Shown here piece by piece: positions 1 through 4,133 of a stretch of 4,133 bases of DNA. Under the pieces are notes generated by a model. The model searched no databases, was not told where the DNA came from, and saw only the letters and a list, made by a program, of their open reading frames with translations. Location of the stretch: IMG/VR virus record IMGVR_UViG_2645727743_000019; one strand, written 5' to 3'. The stretch's first letter is position 1. The number at the start of each line of letters is the position of its first letter. The stretch comes from a virus (taxonomy: Duplodnaviria; Heunggongvirae; Uroviricota; Caudoviricetes). The position numbers and the translations under genes were made by a program.

Positions 1-68
1 TAGCTGAACAGGAGGGACAGCTGATAGAAACAGAAGCCACTGGAGCACCTCAAAAACACCATCATACA

Positions 69-314
69 CTAAATCAGTAAGTTGGCAGCATCACCCAAAC
101 TTCCAGGGTACTCTGAAAGTTTGGATTCTAAATAATGTTTACTGGTTGTTAAATTTCTTACTAGCCCTTGTCTATATTCGGCTGTTACATCAACCAATAC
201 CTTTGCCCCACCGCCAGCGTTTACTATTGCACCCAAGTCACTACTGGAAAAAGGGATTCTTAACATTGGGTTTGTAACTTTTGCGTTACTAAACTGTGTA
301 CCCCTTCTGCTCAT
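69..314 (-). CDS. hypothetical small protein (81 aa) overlapping the 3' end of the AAA ATPase gene; candidate partner of the ATPase
   Basis: Open frame of 81 codons with TAG stop at 69-71. The ATG at 314-312 is preceded on the coding strand by AAGGAGTCAGGAGCAT, which holds two Shine-Dalgarno-like GGAG cores. The start lies inside the last 26 nt of the AAA gene in a different frame, an arrangement typical of translational coupling. Composition is AT-rich like the ATPase gene. I recognise no motif in the protein (contains NAGGGAKVLVDV). Confidence 0.45.
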   Translation of the reverse strand: MSRRGTQFSNAKVTNPMLRIPFSSSDLGAIVNAGGGAKVLVDVTAEYRQGLVRNLTTSKHYLESKLSEYPGSLGDAANLLI

Positions 315-1443
315 ATGCTCCTGACTCCTTCAGAATGTTTGAAATTACTCTTGATGTAAGTTTGTACAAATTAGCAAGAACTCTGATAGAAAATAATTTT
401 TTATCTTTAGAACGTAACCAACGAATTTCATCTTCGTAAGTGCTTAAATTTACACCTTCCATAAGCGATTGCGCAAGATACAAACGCCTATACAATTTAT
501 GGTGATTTATCACACTTGCACCTTCAATAACTGCATCCCTACGTGCATCCAAGCTCACCTGTTCAATTATTGCTCCGGATAATCCCTCCGATTTTCTTGA
601 TAAATCACTTAAATCTAGATCGCTACATATCATATTCTTTAAACGATTTTTCCAAATTAACTCTCTCTGATGTATGTCAGGCAGAGGCATTGGAATTCTG
701 AAGCTAAATCGCCTCCAGATTGCAGGATCCAGAAGTTGCTCATGGTTAGTTGAGGCAATAATTACCGTATCCTCTGATGCCGCATCCATATTCTGCAATA
801 GTGAAATGACAACTCGCTGAAGCTCACCTATATCTCTCTCATTACCTCTTGCTCCAGCTAAAGCATCAAATTCGTCTAAAAAAAGCACTGATGGCCTCTG
901 CATTACATAATCGAAAACCTGTCTAAGATTTTTGCTGGTTTGTCCCAATAAACTACTAATCAAAGTATCGCAACGCACTGTAAGAAGTGGAAAATCTAAG
1001 CGGGTAGCGATGTACTTAGATAACATAGTCTTACCTGTTCCTGGCTTTCCATACACGAGCATACGACTCGGCAATGCTGCATCAGCTTTAACAAACTCAT
1101 CATAACGTTGAACATTAGTGATAAACTCTTCAACACGGGTACTGATTGCTGCAGGCAGAAAAATCTCTGAACTGTCTAATTTAGGATAACTGACATCAAC
1201 AGTGTTGAGTCGACTATCAATATCTACCGGTAATGAGCCCAGAGATATCCCACCTCCAGCCCTTTGAGCTCCTGCCAACGCCTGGGGAGCTCTAAGCAAC
1301 CTTTCTCTTATCATTCTGGCTTGCTTGACCTCCCCTTTTTGTTCGAGCTTATCTGCCAGCAACCCAGCATAATTACTAGCCATCGAAGCATTTGCCTTTG
1401 TTGCACCTTCAATGATTTTTAACACTTCTGATAAATAATCCAT
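289..1443 (-). CDS. AAA family ATPase, classic clade, with uncharacterised ~120-aa N-terminal domain
   Basis: 384-aa ORF, ATG at 1443-1441 preceded by GGGAGTGTTGA (SD-like GGGAG). Walker A is GKPGTGKT (aa 132-139, nt 1027-1050) and Walker B is VLFLDEFD (nt 865-885). Sensor-1 is ASTN, followed by a second region of homology AIWRRFSFRIPMPLP with tandem arginines (aa 244-245). A lid-type motif GLSGAII sits near aa 287-293. The RRF..RI...PLP pattern is what I associate with the Vps4/katanin/spastin-like branch of classic AAA proteins. The N-terminal ~120 residues and C-terminal ~90 residues carry no motif I can assign. Confidence 0.9.
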   Translation of the reverse strand: MDYLSEVLKIIEGATKANASMASNYAGLLADKLEQKGEVKQARMIRERLLRAPQALAGAQRAGGGISLGSLPVDIDSRLNTVDVSYPKLDSSEIFLPAAISTRVEEFITNVQRYDEFVKADAALPSRMLVYGKPGTGKTMLSKYIATRLDFPLLTVRCDTLISSLLGQTSKNLRQVFDYVMQRPSVLFLDEFDALAGARGNERDIGELQRVVISLLQNMDAASEDTVIIASTNHEQLLDPAIWRRFSFRIPMPLPDIHQRELIWKNRLKNMICSDLDLSDLSRKSEGLSGAIIEQVSLDARRDAVIEGASVINHHKLYRRLYLAQSLMEGVNLSTYEDEIRWLRSKDKKLFSIRVLANLYKLTSRVISNILKESGAYEQKGYTV

Positions 1444-1640
1444 TCAACACTCCCACAACAAAAAGCCACAGCAATCAAAAAATGAGCACACAGAATCAAA
1501 ATACTCTCTAATCGTAACGCATTTTGAGATTTTTGATACGTTTTTTTGGGATTATGTAACGCCAAATGGTCATTTTGTGTCAGAAAAATAAATCTTAGTA
1601 CCGAGAATATGTAGCTTCCATCCTTCATCGTTCTATTCAT
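1419..1640 (-). CDS. possible small hydrophobic protein (73 aa) bridging the replication module and the AAA ATPase gene; speculative
   Basis: The ATG at 1640-1638 overlaps the TGA stop (1639-1637) of the upstream 143-aa gene as ATGA, with GGAG 7 nt upstream. The frame stays open for 73 codons through the whole AT-rich 'intergenic' region and ends at TAA 1421-1419, inside the first 25 nt of the AAA gene. The predicted product has a hydrophobic stretch (ESILILCAHFLIAVAFCCGSV) that could be a single transmembrane helix. Against it: rare codons, no recognisable domain, and the region could instead be a non-coding promoter leader. Confidence 0.25.
   Translation of the reverse strand: MNRTMKDGSYIFSVLRFIFLTQNDHLALHNPKKTYQKSQNALRLESILILCAHFLIAVAFCCGSVEWIIYQKC
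1444..1636 (-). promoter_or_regulatory. AT-rich leader upstream of the AAA ATPase gene; possible promoter and operator region (alternative to the small-ORF reading)
   Basis: 193 bp between the stop of the 143-aa gene and the AAA start, about 30% G+C. On the coding strand it contains weak sigma70-like elements (CTGACA ... TTACAT/CATAAT) and an A-tract. A short inverted repeat CCAAATG-GT-CATTTTG sits at 1562-1577 (5-bp perfect core). No convincing intrinsic terminator hairpin with a T-run was seen. Promoter calls by eye are unreliable. Confidence 0.2.
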
Positions 1641-2068
1641 CCCTGATCTCCAAGCCTCTCTCGAAAACCATTCTGATAAAACGCCAGCACACGCTGCATA
1701 ACTTCGCTCTTCCGGCACTCGCGACAGATTATGTTCAGACGCCTGTCGTAGCGGCGTATTTCTCCGTCTGGTAATGACCAGATAAGGTCCGGATCAACCA
1801 CAGATGGTTTCTTCACCTTTGCCCTGGATAGTTTTTTGCGGGCATTTTGCCAGTCCTTACGAGCCTGTTCAGACGGGAATAACCCGTAACCAGAGTTGTA
1901 TACATCGCCACTGGCAACCAGCTCTCTGGCGAGAACGCTCATCAGATATCTTGTCGCACCTGTCTTGGCTTCCAGTTGCCGTAACATCTCGCGCCCACTC
2001 CGGCGTACTAGCTCAACAACCTGCCCTTTAATTTTTTCCCGCTCTTCTTGTGTAAATACTTTTGCCAT
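1637..2068 (-). CDS. hypothetical protein (143 aa), basic, prophage replication-region gene of unknown function
   Basis: ATG at 2068-2066 is preceded by GGAGG at 7-nt spacing and lies 15 nt downstream of the TGA stop of the preceding gene. The longer version in the ORF track begins at a TTG (2083) and is less likely. The protein is rich in R/K and has a single CxxC (ICRECRK). Composition matches the replication module. I do not recognise the family. Confidence 0.65.
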   Translation of the reverse strand: MAKVFTQEEREKIKGQVVELVRRSGREMLRQLEAKTGATRYLMSVLARELVASGDVYNSGYGLFPSEQARKDWQNARKKLSRAKVKKPSVVDPDLIWSLPDGEIRRYDRRLNIICRECRKSEVMQRVLAFYQNGFRERLGDQG

Positions 2069-2083
2069 AAGCGCCTCCGGCAA

Positions 2084-2845
2084 TCACTTTTCCGATACAA
2101 CACGGCGGGAAGAATCAGTAATCTGTCGAACAATATCCCGGTGCTTGTTCAGCTCCCGCAGCGCGGCGCAGACTCGCTCCCACTTCTGGACATGATTTTT
2201 CGCCCGACGCAGTTCGCGGTTTGCCATATGCAGTGATGGTAAAACCAGGTCATCCGCTCGCGTTTCAGTAAACGATGGCAGCGACTGCACAATGTCCGCC
2301 ACAGTTTCTGTTTTAATATCTTCCTGTGTTGCAGCCTCCTGTACTGGTAACGCAACACCTGCGGTATGAGGAAAGGCCTTACCATCAGTTTCCGCTACCG
2401 ATGCTGCTTTCGGCTCTGCTGGTAAATTATCGCCCGGTATGCAGTAACGAAATTTACCGCCCTGATTTACGCGAATCAGACGACCTTTGCTGATTGCCAT
2501 TGCCAGCGTTGAAGCCACTTTGCGTGATGTGGTACCAAACAATGTAGCCAGCTCATCAGCCATTTGTGGTCCTCGTTGTTCAATCGTCGCGGTTAAATCG
2601 CACTCTGAGATTTTCGCTACTGTTGCTGTGGTGATTTCTTCCGGCAGTTCTGCCTGCGCTGGCTGTTCCTGCTGAACGTTGTTATCAGCCACACGCCAGG
2701 TGTACGCGCTTTTATCAACAAAACCAGCCTTTTTCAGTTCCCATAGTTCGTTCAGCACTTCTTCACGACTGATATCAAGTCGCGCAGCAAGTTCTATGGA
2801 TGTGGCTTTTCCCATTGCTTTCAGTGCGTCAAAAACAGTCTCCAT
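2084..2845 (-). CDS. prophage protein with two winged-helix (HTH) DNA-binding-like segments; function unknown
   Basis: Preferred start is ATG 2845-2843, preceded by GGGAGA at 8-nt spacing and lying 22 nt after the DnaC-like stop. The alternative ATG at 2896 would overlap the DnaC-like gene by 29 nt and has a weaker SD. The N-terminus ([29 protein letters not shown]) and a second segment ([32 protein letters not shown]) both look like MarR/Lrp-type winged-helix recognition units. The acidic/Q-rich linker and basic C-terminus resemble proteins I recall following dnaC-like genes in Rac-type prophages (DUF1627-like), but this is unverified. Confidence 0.7.
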
Positions 2846-2867
2846 TAAATTTTTCTCCCGGTAAAAA

Positions 2868-3614
2868 TTACTTCGCAATTCCTGGCTGGACGACATTCGG
2901 ACGCCAGCTCTCCCAGTTAAAATTCACCCATAGCCCGCCGTTCATGGTCATGCGATCCATAATCCGCTCGCCGAGCAATGTTTTCATGGCCTCATAGTTC
3001 AGGTTTGTCAGCATCCCCACGCTGCGCATCGACGCTGTCCGGCGATCAACAATCTGGTGCAGTACCACCTGCTCGTTTTTCGTCTCGCGCTGAATGCCAA
3101 TTTCATCAAGAACCAGCAGATCCACTTCGCACAGTTCCCGCAAAAATTTTTCGCCTGACTGCCCATCGTCATAGCTGGCGTGGAGGGCACTCATAACATC
3201 AGCCACGGTAACCACAATCACTGTCTGACCGTCTTTCAGCAGGCGATTCCCGATAGCTGCTGCTAAGTGGTTCTTCCCGGTACCAGGTTTTCCGCTAAAC
3301 GCGAAATTTGTGCATCCGGTCATCAGTTCATCAGCGATAGATTTCGCCTGGCTCAACGCGTATCGCTGACCGTCGTTCTGCACCTGGTAATTCGCAAACG
3401 AGCATTTACGGTGCAACGGCTGGATGCCTGAGCGATTCAGAATTTTTTCCACCCGCAACTGGCGATTCAGGCGGTTGATCTCCTCGCTACGTTTCTGGCC
3501 TTCAGCAAGTTGCCACTCGTGCCACTCCGCTACCGTTCTGAATGGGGCGGTTACATGTGGCGGAGCCAGTCTTCGGATACGTTCAAGAACGCCGCCTGCC
3601 GCAATGTTTTTCAT
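2868..3614 (-). CDS. dnaC: DnaC-like replicative helicase loader (prophage paralogue of DnaC)
   Basis: 248-aa ORF with Walker [18 protein letters not shown] (nt 3270-3293), Walker [10 protein letters not shown] and [11 protein letters not shown]. These stretches are near-identical to what I recall of E. coli DnaC ([30 protein letters not shown]). The N-terminus ([17 protein letters not shown]) also resembles DnaC. The ATG at 3614 lies 6 nt after the TGA of the upstream DnaT-like gene with AGGGGG as SD, as in a dnaT-dnaC type operon. Confidence 0.9.
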
Positions 3615-3620
3615 GACACG

Positions 3621-4133
3621 TCACCCCCTGAATCCCGGCGGTATTTCAGTGTCCGGTTCAGAAATGTGATTCACGCAACGCTGCGCAGGCAAACGCCCCA
3701 GGCGGATAACCAGTTCATCCCATTTTTCCCGGAGTTTTGCCGGACTCATGATGTTTTTTACCCAGAACGAATCCCGCTGGAGACGCCCAAACATTTCACA
3801 AATTTGTCTGTGAGTTCTGCCATCCAGCATCCGCATTGTGCGAACGTCATTGGCCCATGCTGTCCAGTTGGGTTCTTTCGGTCTAGTGATCTCGCCATCA
3901 TAGCTGGCCGCCTGCTCGTAAAGACTCACGATTCGTCCCCAGATCCACTGTGCGCACACCAAATCTTCCTGACTTCCCCACTGGCGTTTTTTCGCACTGA
4001 ACACAACCGCGTCAGGGTGTCGGGTTAAAAAATCCTGTTCAGCCGTCTGCGGGTCCGGTTGCGAAGCGTCCGGACAAGAAGATCTTTTATCTGACGGATC
4101 AGGTTTTAATACTGACGGATCGGGGTCAATCAT
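3621..4133 (-). CDS. phage replication protein with DnaT-like (primosomal protein I) C-terminal domain; possibly 5'-truncated by the window edge
   Basis: Open frame running from the window edge to TGA 3623-3621. The C-terminus (ISEPDTEIPPGFRG) closely matches the C-terminal end of E. coli DnaT as I recall it (...SEPDSQIPPGFRG). It sits immediately upstream of, and is coupled to, the DnaC-like gene. The frame begins with ATG exactly at 4133-4131, so the true start may be this codon or may lie beyond the window. Confidence 0.8.
   Translation of the reverse strand: MIDPDPSVLKPDPSDKRSSCPDASQPDPQTAEQDFLTRHPDAVVFSAKKRQWGSQEDLVCAQWIWGRIVSLYEQAASYDGEITRPKEPNWTAWANDVRTMRMLDGRTHRQICEMFGRLQRDSFWVKNIMSPAKLREKWDELVIRLGRLPAQRCVNHISEPDTEIPPGFRG

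What the first reader, a model, noticed from the sequence alone, without database searches (positions are those of the whole stretch)
1..1700. Sharp compositional discontinuity at about 1640 marks a probable horizontally acquired insertion
Hand counts on 60-nt lines give 33/60 and 30/60 G+C in the replication module (1681-1740, 2461-2520) against 18/60 and 15/60 in 1501-1560 and 361-420. The first ~60 nt of the window return to about 48%, so the AT-rich block may end near the 81-aa ORF. The boundary coincides with the end of the replication operon, consistent with a moron or cargo insertion rather than an ancestral phage gene.
Basis: seen in the sequence. Interest (0 to 1): 0.45.

Follow-up and report, generated by a model that had tools for sequence, protein, structure and literature searches.

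The report
IS1-broken IetAS defence cassette in prophage
The AT-rich stretch is a known two-gene anti-phage defence cassette (IetA ATPase plus IetS protease) carried as swappable cargo in an E. coli prophage, and in this strain an IS1 insertion has cut off the protease gene; it is real but ordinary.

Summary
The GC step is real. Window 96-1640 is 39.4% G+C and 1641-4133 is 51.5%. The maximum-likelihood change-point is 1681, with LLR 28 against at most 12.5 in block shuffles.

The AT-rich block is the known IetAS (NCBI: IteA/IteS) anti-phage toxin-antitoxin cassette. iteA (289-1443, minus strand) is intact and passes NCBI's equivalog cut-off.

The "81-aa ORF" is not a gene. It is the first 73 codons of the 754-codon iteS fused to the end of an IS1 element (window 1-95). 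That IS1 end explains the return to about 48% G+C and why the contig stops there.

In intact relatives the block is about 4 kb and lies between the replication module (O-like, DnaC-like ydaV, DUF1627, DUF977) and the DUF968/RusA/Q or DUF1367/Q module of Rac-like lambdoid prophages. It occurs in 78 of 5,426 complete E. coli genomes.

The right junction is at window 1673, directly after the conserved FYQ codons of the DUF977 gene. Other prophages hold other cargo at that same joint (hok, a QueH fragment, small ORFs). No flanking repeats were found, so the likely route is module exchange by recombination and not transposition.

Its left boundary and its reading of the 81-aa ORF do not. The feature is already known and of low interest.

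The parts
1..95 (-). Left end of an IS1 element: the terminal inverted repeat GGTGATGCTGCC... and the GTG start of insA at IS1 nt 56, read on the minus strand. The contig ends inside it.
   Evidence: 100/100 identity to sequence annotated 'IS1-like element IS1B family transposase' in more than 5,000 plasmid records. This stretch alone hits 5,338 of 5,426 E. coli genomes. Homology to intact iteS stops at 93-95. The insA-like start VASVSISCPSCSA was read.
96..314 (-). 5' remnant of iteS (S8 protease, the toxin/effector): codons 1-73 of 754. The listed 81-aa ORF (69-314) is this remnant fused to IS1 sequence that supplies ...GDAANLLI and the stop.
   Evidence: PADLOC IetS PDLC02197, E=1.3e-10, ORF residues 12-73 on profile positions 3-64 of 749. 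NCBIfam IteS NF042956 scores 37 bits against a cut-off of 900. Identical apart from one synonymous SNP at 99 to the start of the intact 754-aa iteS of strain TUM14664. The Peptidase_S8 domain lies at residues 268-544 and is therefore lost.
289..1443 (-). iteA/ietA: intact AAA+ ATPase of 384 aa, the antitoxin/partner of IetS. It overlaps the iteS start by 26 nt.
   Evidence: NCBIfam IteA_antiphage NF042959 (equivalog), 526.6 bits against a cut-off of 510, full length. PADLOC IetA, E=8.9e-143. Pfam AAA, E=2.6e-30. 100% identical to cluster P0001. RefSeq annotates this gene in the intact relative TUM14664 as WP_000385105.1, 'anti-phage ATPase IteA'; its identity to the window's protein follows from the DNA comparison.
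1444..1565 (-). Conserved upstream region of the cassette: presumed promoter and 5' leader of iteAS.
   Evidence: DNA homology to the Citrobacter cassette (81% overall) extends to window 1565 and then stops. Long conserved runs are visible in the alignment. No consensus sigma-70 promoter was found by the strict scan or the relaxed scan, so the promoter role is inferred.
1566..1672 (-). Extra AT-rich DNA specific to the E. coli version of the block. It includes the last 11 codons and the stop (1637-1672) of the DUF977 gene, encoding NGFRERLGDQG.
   Evidence: Not shared with the Citrobacter cassette and not shared with other DUF977 prophages. G+C is 0.38. The 99-aa and 73-aa ORFs overlapping this stretch match no family and are not conserved in Citrobacter.
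1673..2083 (-). Conserved part of the DUF977 gene, the last gene of the replication module. Position 1673 is the module joint and the true position of the G+C step.
   Evidence: Homology to three independent prophages with other cargo starts at L001:10581, which is window 1673, in all three. Every allele shares ...EVMQR(V/I)L(A/S)FYQ and then diverges. Pfam DUF977, E=2.2e-27.
2084..4133 (-). Replication module at about 51-52% G+C: DUF1627 protein (2084-2896 as an ORF; RefSeq start equivalent to 2845), DnaC/IstB-like ATPase ydaV (2868-3614), and the 3' part of an O-like HTH replication gene (3621-4133, cut by the contig end).
   Evidence: Pfam DUF1627 E=4.7e-97 and IstB_IS21 E=1.3e-19. RefSeq annotation of the identical locus.

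Best explanation
The AT-rich block is the IetAS (IteA/IteS) anti-phage toxin-antitoxin cassette. It is carried as exchangeable accessory cargo in a variable slot of Rac-like lambdoid prophages, directly after the conserved end of the DUF977 gene that closes the replication module.

In intact relatives the block is about 3.97 kb. It has a 3.5-kb core (about 120 nt of upstream region, iteA, and an overlapping iteS). The core is flanked by 107 nt and 349 nt of further AT-rich DNA, and the 349-nt side ends in a perfect 16-bp hairpin terminator.

The cassette was joined to this slot by recombination without target duplication. That junction is older. More recently, the DUF977-iteA-iteS unit has moved between prophage backgrounds by homologous recombination in conserved flanking sequence.

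According to the literature, IetS is a subtilisin-like protease that acts as the toxic effector, IetA is the AAA+ ATPase that restrains it, and protease activity is required for defence. In this strain (E. coli 401140) an IS1 element has inserted after codon 73-74 of iteS and removed the whole protease domain from the reading frame. The defence system is therefore predicted to be dead, leaving an intact orphan iteA.

Shown here: the composition step, gene identities, both junctions, the IS1 end, and the population distribution. Inferred: the promoter, expression from the lysogen, loss of function, and the donor lineage.
For: Composition.

Identity of the genes:
- IetA passes the NCBIfam equivalog cut-off at 526.6 against 510 and matches PADLOC IetA at E=9e-143.
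- The intact neighbour gene in the relative TUM14664 (identical to the window at all but two of 4,041 positions) passes the IteS cut-off at 1037.8 against 900 and has Peptidase_S8 at residues 268-544.
- RefSeq annotates the same locus as iteA/iteS.

IS1:
- Window 1-95 is an IS1 end.
- The same fusion ORF appears in the NCBI assembly and in 5 independent Logan assemblies, all breaking inside IS1.
- All 78 complete genomes with the block have uninterrupted iteS DNA.

Cargo status:
- 78 of 5,426 genomes carry the block, all on the chromosome and all next to DUF977.
- The same slot holds hok, a QueH fragment or small ORFs in other prophages, with the right-hand break at the same base.
- The block occurs in at least two backgrounds with different left neighbours, including an isolated phage, vB_EcoS-683R6.
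- Block plus DUF977 is 99.0-99.8% identical between backgrounds, while DUF1627 and ydaV are 91-95% (Fisher p=1e-23 and 2e-35).
- A Citrobacter prophage carries an 81%-identical cassette, also AT-rich (0.415 against 0.497) and also just after a DUF977 gene.

No flanking direct or inverted repeats. Terminator hairpin after iteS.

Mechanism from the literature:
- Protease is the toxin, ATPase is the antitoxin, protease activity is required, and the anti-phage mechanism is unknown (PMC13069673).
- The B. cereus ietAS acts by abortive infection triggered by a phage protein (10.1101/2022.08.27.505566).
- E. coli ietAS is often located in prophages (10.1101/2022.08.21.504612).
Against: - No consensus sigma-70 promoter was found upstream of iteA, so autonomous expression, a defining trait of a moron, is not shown.
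- No truly empty DUF977|DUF968 site was found in 5,426 genomes. 'Insertion' is therefore strictly 'one of several alternative occupants of a slot'.
- The other side of the IS1 is not in this contig. A simple insertion cannot be told apart from an IS1-associated deletion of the rest of iteS, and the target-site duplication cannot be checked.
- The donor of the AT-rich DNA is unknown. The closest relatives are all Enterobacterales whose own genomes are about 50-55% G+C (the genome G+C figure is my own knowledge).
- Anti-phage activity of this particular E. coli allele was not tested here.
Confidence: 0.9

Rival explanations
1. The AT-rich stretch is an ancestral part of this phage lineage. Its composition reflects local function or mutation bias, as with the AT-rich immunity regions of lambdoid phages, and not horizontal acquisition.
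For: L001 has a second moderately AT-rich stretch at 14,000-17,000, with G+C of 0.42-0.45, in the immunity/early-left region. Prophages are therefore not compositionally uniform.
Against: The block is present in only 78 of 5,426 genomes, while its flanks are present in thousands. Other prophages hold alternative cargo at the identical joint. Identity between backgrounds is discontinuous. A homologous AT-rich cassette exists in a Citrobacter prophage whose flanks are otherwise unrelated or only weakly related.
Confidence: 0.03
2. IS1 brought the AT-rich block in, as a composite transposon or by IS1-mediated co-integration. On this view the G+C step is an IS1-generated junction.
For: An IS1 end abuts the AT-rich DNA at window 95. 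IS1 is known to mobilise adjacent DNA (my own knowledge).
Against: Seventy-eight complete genomes carry the same block, with the same right junction at 1673 and an uninterrupted iteS. In the three intact loci inspected (L001, L005, L006) no IS1 is annotated within the slot. The IS1 lies inside a reading frame of the cassette, not at its edge. IS1 is therefore a later, strain-specific event.
Confidence: 0.02
3. The block is a self-mobile element inserted by site-specific recombination or transposition, with definable ends and a target duplication, as the reader proposed to look for.
For: The edges are sharp at both ends.
Against: No direct or inverted repeats bracket L001:6609-10580. The annotated genes in the block are only iteA and iteS, so it carries no integrase or transposase gene. 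The break falls at a joint shared by several unrelated cargos. A 42-nt sequence shared by all backgrounds sits at the left joint. In Citrobacter the cassette joins DUF977 at a different point, profile positions 1-72 only. All of this fits illegitimate or homologous module exchange better.
Confidence: 0.04
4. The contig is an assembly chimera, and the composition step or the IS1 junction is an artefact.
For: The window is a 4.1-kb contig from a short-read draft that ends in a repeat.
Against: Window 93-4133 is collinear with complete genomes, differing from TUM14664 at 2 of 4,041 positions. The IS1::iteS junction recurs in 5 other assemblies of separate read sets.
Confidence: 0.01

Closest known systems
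IetAS / IteAS anti-phage defence system (Gao et al. 2020). It was first described as a protease-toxin / ATPase-antitoxin plasmid-stability pair, as stated in PMC13069673.
   Same: The gene pair, order and overlap are the same. IetA passes the curated equivalog model. The intact partner gene in relatives that differ from the window at only 2 of 4,041 positions passes the IteS model and has an S8 domain. RefSeq already names these exact proteins.
   Different: In this strain iteS is cut after codon 73-74 by IS1, so only the ATPase gene is intact and the system is predicted to be non-functional.
Morons and accessory-gene slots of lambdoid phages (Hendrix/Juhala concept), and prophage-encoded defence hotspots (for example the P2/P4 hotspots, PMC9122126).
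   Same: Extra genes sit between conserved modules, with deviant base composition, a terminator at the 3' end, presence/absence polymorphism, and alternative cargos at one joint.
   Different: No consensus promoter was found and no empty site was found. The joint lies inside the 3' end of a reading frame (DUF977) and not between genes. This slot, after the replication module of Rac-like phages, is not one I found described as a named hotspot in the papers I read.
The relBE-hokD / rem region of the E. coli K-12 Qin prophage.
   Same: In other E. coli genomes the equivalent DUF977|DUF968 (ydfU) interval holds hokD and rem (hits H69-H71), so this is the same variable slot filled with toxin-type cargo.
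   Different: The occupant is different and the size differs (0.24-0.6 kb against 4 kb). The hok occupant is not AT-rich (0.55).
IS1 insertional inactivation.
   Same: A canonical IS1 terminal sequence abuts a broken reading frame, and the draft contig ends in the repeat.
   Different: The second IS1 end and the target-site duplication could not be seen.

Membership tests
IetAS (IteA/IteS) defence system | An AAA+ ATPase matching the IetA/IteA family model over its full length | tested here: met
   NCBIfam NF042959 (equivalog), 526.6 bits against a cut-off of 510, positions 1-367 of 367. PADLOC PDLC02196, E=8.9e-143, positions 1-371 of 374.
IetAS (IteA/IteS) defence system | An adjacent, co-oriented S8 subtilase gene (IetS/IteS) of about 750 aa | tested here: not met
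   In the window only codons 1-73 remain: 37 bits against a cut-off of 900, profile positions 1-60 of 747. The feature is met in intact relatives, where the 754-aa protein scores 1037.8 bits with Peptidase_S8 at residues 268-544. The window therefore holds a disrupted member.
IetAS (IteA/IteS) defence system | Protection against phage that depends on protease activity | not testable with these tools
   Literature only: PMC13069673 and 10.1101/2022.08.21.504612 (the ECOR52 allele is weak on its own).
Moron / accessory cargo of a lambdoid prophage | Present between genes that are adjacent in related phages | tested here: inconclusive
   No empty site in 5,426 genomes. The interval instead holds alternative cargos of 244-630 nt in other prophages, with identical right break points.
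Moron / accessory cargo of a lambdoid prophage | Base composition different from the surrounding phage genes | tested here: met
   G+C is 0.39 against 0.49-0.52, and GC3 is 0.32 against 0.44-0.61.
Moron / accessory cargo of a lambdoid prophage | Its own promoter and terminator | tested here: inconclusive
   A terminator is present: a perfect 16-bp hairpin 8 nt after the iteS stop in L001, which lies outside the window. No consensus sigma-70 promoter was found in 1444-1672, although 122 nt of upstream sequence is conserved with Citrobacter.
IS1 insertion | The canonical IS1 terminal sequence | tested here: met
   Window 1-100 is 100% identical to annotated IS1 copies. It contains the terminal repeat and the insA start.
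IS1 insertion | An 8-9 bp target-site duplication, with the remainder of the target gene on the other side | not testable with these tools
   The contig ends inside IS1. The junction 40-mer is absent from genome contigs and viral contigs. The paper's supplement did not contain the gene.

The most novel reading that the evidence does not exclude
The orphan iteA may be more than debris. Because IetA is the antitoxin of a protease toxin, an intact and possibly still expressed iteA left behind after IS1 removed iteS could neutralise IetS delivered by incoming IetAS-bearing phages or plasmids, acting as an anti-addiction or anti-defence module.

Separately, the tight co-transfer of DUF977 with iteAS, together with a cassette-specific 11-residue tail on DUF977, could mean that DUF977 is a functional third partner or sensor linking phage replication to the system.
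Probability: 0.05. Interest if true: 0.45.

Novelty: already known. Interest (0 to 1): 0.15.

Why it matters
It matters little beyond annotation. The G+C step is a correct flag for accessory cargo, but the cargo is a named defence system that RefSeq already annotates at this exact locus in dozens of complete genomes.

Three small points are useful:
1. The 81-aa ORF in the draft assembly of strain 401140 is a fusion artefact of an IS1 insertion and should be annotated as a disrupted iteS.
2. Strain 401140 and its study-mate 102651 differ by an IS1 knockout of the IetS protease in the same prophage. They make a convenient, though not isogenic, natural pair for testing what E. coli IetAS does.
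3. The codon right after FYQ at the end of DUF977 is a recurrent module joint in Rac-like prophages, where different toxin or defence cargos are swapped.

Tried and rejected
- Empty-site search. A synthetic query joining the two flanks found no genome with the flanks adjacent. It did reveal alternative cargos in the slot.
- Flanking repeats. None bracket the block.
- Promoter. The strict scan and the relaxed scan gave only one weak 8/12 match with a 19-nt spacer. The footprint alignment with Citrobacter shows conservation but no clear -35/-10 pair.
- RNA families. None in the window at E<=1. The sub-threshold hits in L001 are driven by the terminator hairpin.
- The 99-aa and 73-aa ORFs across the intergenic region (1419-1718), which one phage record annotates as a 'kinase fragment'. 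They match no family and have no counterpart in Citrobacter, so I rejected them as genes.
- Junction 40-mer in genome contigs and viral contigs: no hit.
- Whether the rest of iteS survives in 401140. The paper's cluster FASTA was cut when stored and the gene was not found.
- Whether the Logan contigs are RNA-seq assemblies, which would show transcription. The SRR accessions were not found in any paper or supplement, so this stays open.
- Donor lineage. The protein search shows only that the nearest relatives are Enterobacterales (91%, then 86% and below), followed by Pseudomonas and Aeromonas at about 60%. No low-G+C donor was identified.
Full report
**1. The observation**

- Window 96-1640 is 39.4% G+C and 1641-4133 is 51.5%.
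- A single change-point fit places the step at 1681, with a 2-lnL range of 1593-1712.
- The log-likelihood ratio is 28.1. In 200 shuffles of 60-nt blocks the mean was 4.4 and the maximum 12.5.
- Third-position G+C is 0.32 in both AT-rich reading frames and 0.44-0.61 in the four genes to the right.

**2. What is encoded**

All real genes are on the minus strand. From right to left they are:
- the 3' part of an O-like HTH replication gene (3621-4133);
- a DnaC/IstB-like ATPase, ydaV (2868-3614);
- a DUF1627 protein (2084-2896);
- a DUF977 protein (1637-2083);
- then, inside the AT-rich DNA, a 384-aa AAA+ ATPase (289-1443) and the 81-aa ORF (69-314).

The ATPase is IetA/IteA. It matches PADLOC at E=8.9e-143 over its full length. 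It scores 526.6 bits on the NCBIfam equivalog model, above the 510 cut-off.

The 81-aa ORF matches only the first 60-64 positions of the roughly 750-position IetS/IteS models. It is a fragment.

**3. The left end is IS1, not the end of the block**

Window 1-100 is 100% identical to sequence annotated as IS1 in more than 5,000 plasmid records. It is also the reason that 5,338 of 5,426 E. coli genomes hit the window at all.

Aligned with the intact gene from strain TUM14664, homology to iteS stops at window 93-95. From there the minus strand reads the IS1 terminal repeat GGTGATGCTGCCAACTTACTGATTTAG. That sequence supplies ...GDAANLLI and the stop of the "81-aa ORF". The insA start follows at IS1 nt 56.

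The ORF is therefore 73 iteS codons, one codon that straddles the junction, and 7 IS1 codons.

The intact IetS is 754 aa, with its Peptidase_S8 domain at residues 268-544. The whole catalytic domain is lost from this reading frame.

**4. Source of the window, and whether the junction is real**

The window is the entire contig JHRM01000155.1 of GCA_001265465.1. That assembly is E. coli 401140, an EPEC/ETEC hybrid of phylogroup A (PMC5471185, PMC10332235).

The same fusion ORF is called in five Logan assemblies of separate read sets. Every one of those contigs breaks about 30 nt into IS1, and four of the five are identical to the window. The junction is real, and the contig ends there because IS1 is a repeat.

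No complete E. coli genome has IS1 at this site. All 78 that carry the block have uninterrupted iteS DNA, and two appear to be split by point mutations. One of the intact carriers is strain 102651, from the same study as 401140.

**5. Extent and ends of the block in intact loci**

These coordinates refer to L001, strain TUM14664, which differs from window 93-4133 at two positions. L001 coordinates equal window coordinates plus 8908.

The AT-rich block runs from L001:6609 to 10580, which is 3,972 nt at 39.1% G+C. The flanks are about 0.50-0.58.

Right end:
- Three independent prophages with other cargo lose homology at the same base, L001:10581, which is window 1673.
- That position is 36 nt inside the DUF977 reading frame.
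- All alleles share ...EVMQR(V/I)L(A/S)FYQ and then diverge to different short tails or an immediate stop.

Left end:
- Homology with a hok-bearing prophage ends at L001:6597-6608.
- Homology with Rac-type carriers begins at 6565-6567.
- This leaves a 42-nt joint common to all backgrounds.

No direct or inverted repeats bracket the block.

**6. Cargo status and movement**

The block is in 78 of 5,426 complete genomes. It is always chromosomal and always next to DUF977.

It occurs in at least two backgrounds:
- a lambdoid prophage at ompW, with hypothetical/DUF968/RusA/Q genes to the left;
- true Rac-type prophages, with DUF1367/YbcO/Q to the left. These include an isolated phage, vB_EcoS-683R6.

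Identity between the backgrounds, for L005 and L006 respectively:

| Segment | L001 vs L005 | L001 vs L006 |
|---|---|---|
| iteS | 99.4% | 99.5% |
| iteA | 99.7% | 99.8% |
| upstream region and DUF977 tail | 99.6% | 99.6% |
| DUF977 (shared part) | 99.5% | 99.0% |
| DUF1627 | 94.7% | 91.0% |
| ydaV | 94.0% | 93.6% |

Fisher's test of block against flank gives p=1e-23 and 2e-35.

So the unit exchanged recently is DUF977-iteA-iteS. The G+C step at 1673 is an older junction inside that unit.

No empty DUF977|DUF968 site exists in the collection. Instead, the interval holds a 244-nt hok segment, a 630-nt QueH fragment or a 401-nt small-ORF segment in other prophages. It is a replacement slot.

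**7. The core cassette**

A Citrobacter freundii MAG carries a cassette whose IetA protein is 91% identical to the window's and whose DNA is 81% identical to the E. coli cassette. Its homology spans exactly from the iteS stop to 122 nt upstream of iteA, which is window 1565.

It is likewise AT-rich in a roughly 50% G+C context (0.415 against 0.497). It also lies just after a DUF977 gene, but that gene is cut deeper, at profile positions 1-72 of 134.

The E. coli block is therefore a 3.5-kb core plus 107 nt (right) and 349 nt (left) of extra AT-rich DNA. The left extra carries a perfect 16-bp hairpin just after the iteS stop.

The upstream 122 nt shows long conserved runs, but no consensus sigma-70 promoter. 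A promoter belonging to the cassette is inferred, not shown.

**8. How it works**

This section rests on the literature, which was not tested here.
- IetAS was found as an anti-phage system by Gao et al. 2020.
- It is described as a toxin-antitoxin pair, with the serine protease as toxin and the ATPase as antitoxin.
- Protease activity is required for defence, and the anti-phage mechanism is still unknown (PMC13069673).
- A Bacillus cereus homologue acts by abortive infection triggered by a phage protein.
- E. coli ietAS is often prophage-borne and weak on its own.

On that basis the IS1 insertion removes the effector/toxin. The system in 401140 should be inactive, and the loss should be tolerated, because it is the toxin that has gone and not the antitoxin.

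**9. Verdict**

The feature is a disrupted copy of a known defence system, in a variable prophage slot of a familiar kind. Novelty: already known. Interest: low.

Noticed in passing
L001:6818-6903 (+), outside the window, in the 349-nt AT-rich 3' extra of the block: An unannotated 28-aa hydrophobic ORF (MENNKSAHYAPFLSVILFVFCCVWAVFL) converges on the same bidirectional hairpin (6917-6950) that ends iteS. No NCBIfam family matches it. It shows no differences between L001 and L005, while the 190 nt beside it has 9. It could be a small membrane toxin of type-I TA style, as the hok occupants of this slot are.
   Followed up: partly
window 3623-3664 (about 3657): A second mosaic joint lies between the O-like gene and ydaV. 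Rac-type carriers switch to ydaU to the right of about 3657. A 42-nt island here is 86% conserved even in the Citrobacter prophage, whose ydaV is otherwise only 66% identical. It looks like a conserved linker at a module boundary.
   Followed up: partly
L001:6567-6608, outside the window: A 42-nt sequence containing the small hairpin CTGCTG-GCG-CAGCAG is shared by all prophage backgrounds at the left edge of the slot, 18-60 nt upstream of the next gene's ATG. It is a likely recombination joint or regulatory element.
   Followed up: partly
L009-L013 (Logan contigs covering window 66-1753): Five short contigs from runs SRR1184186 to SRR1186293 cover only iteA and the IS1 junction, and they end at variable points between 1258 and 1753. 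If these runs are the RNA-seq libraries of strain 401140, they would show that iteA and the fusion ORF are transcribed. The library type could not be established.
   Followed up: partly
window 1-60, minus strand: IS1 insA is oriented the same way as iteA and iteS, so transcription of the cassette would read into the IS1 transposase gene.
   Followed up: no
hits H165 and H166 (NZ_AP040205, NZ_CP196120): In two complete genomes the iteS DNA is full length (one is 1 nt short), but it is annotated as 'S8 family peptidase | hypothetical protein'. This suggests independent point inactivation of the protease gene.
   Followed up: no
window 289-314: iteA and iteS overlap by 26 nt, which suggests translational coupling of the antitoxin and toxin genes.
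   Followed up: no
window 2845-2896: The mechanical ORF for the DUF1627 gene (270 aa, from 2896) overlaps ydaV by 29 nt. RefSeq starts the gene at the equivalent of 2845 (253 aa), which removes the overlap.
   Followed up: no
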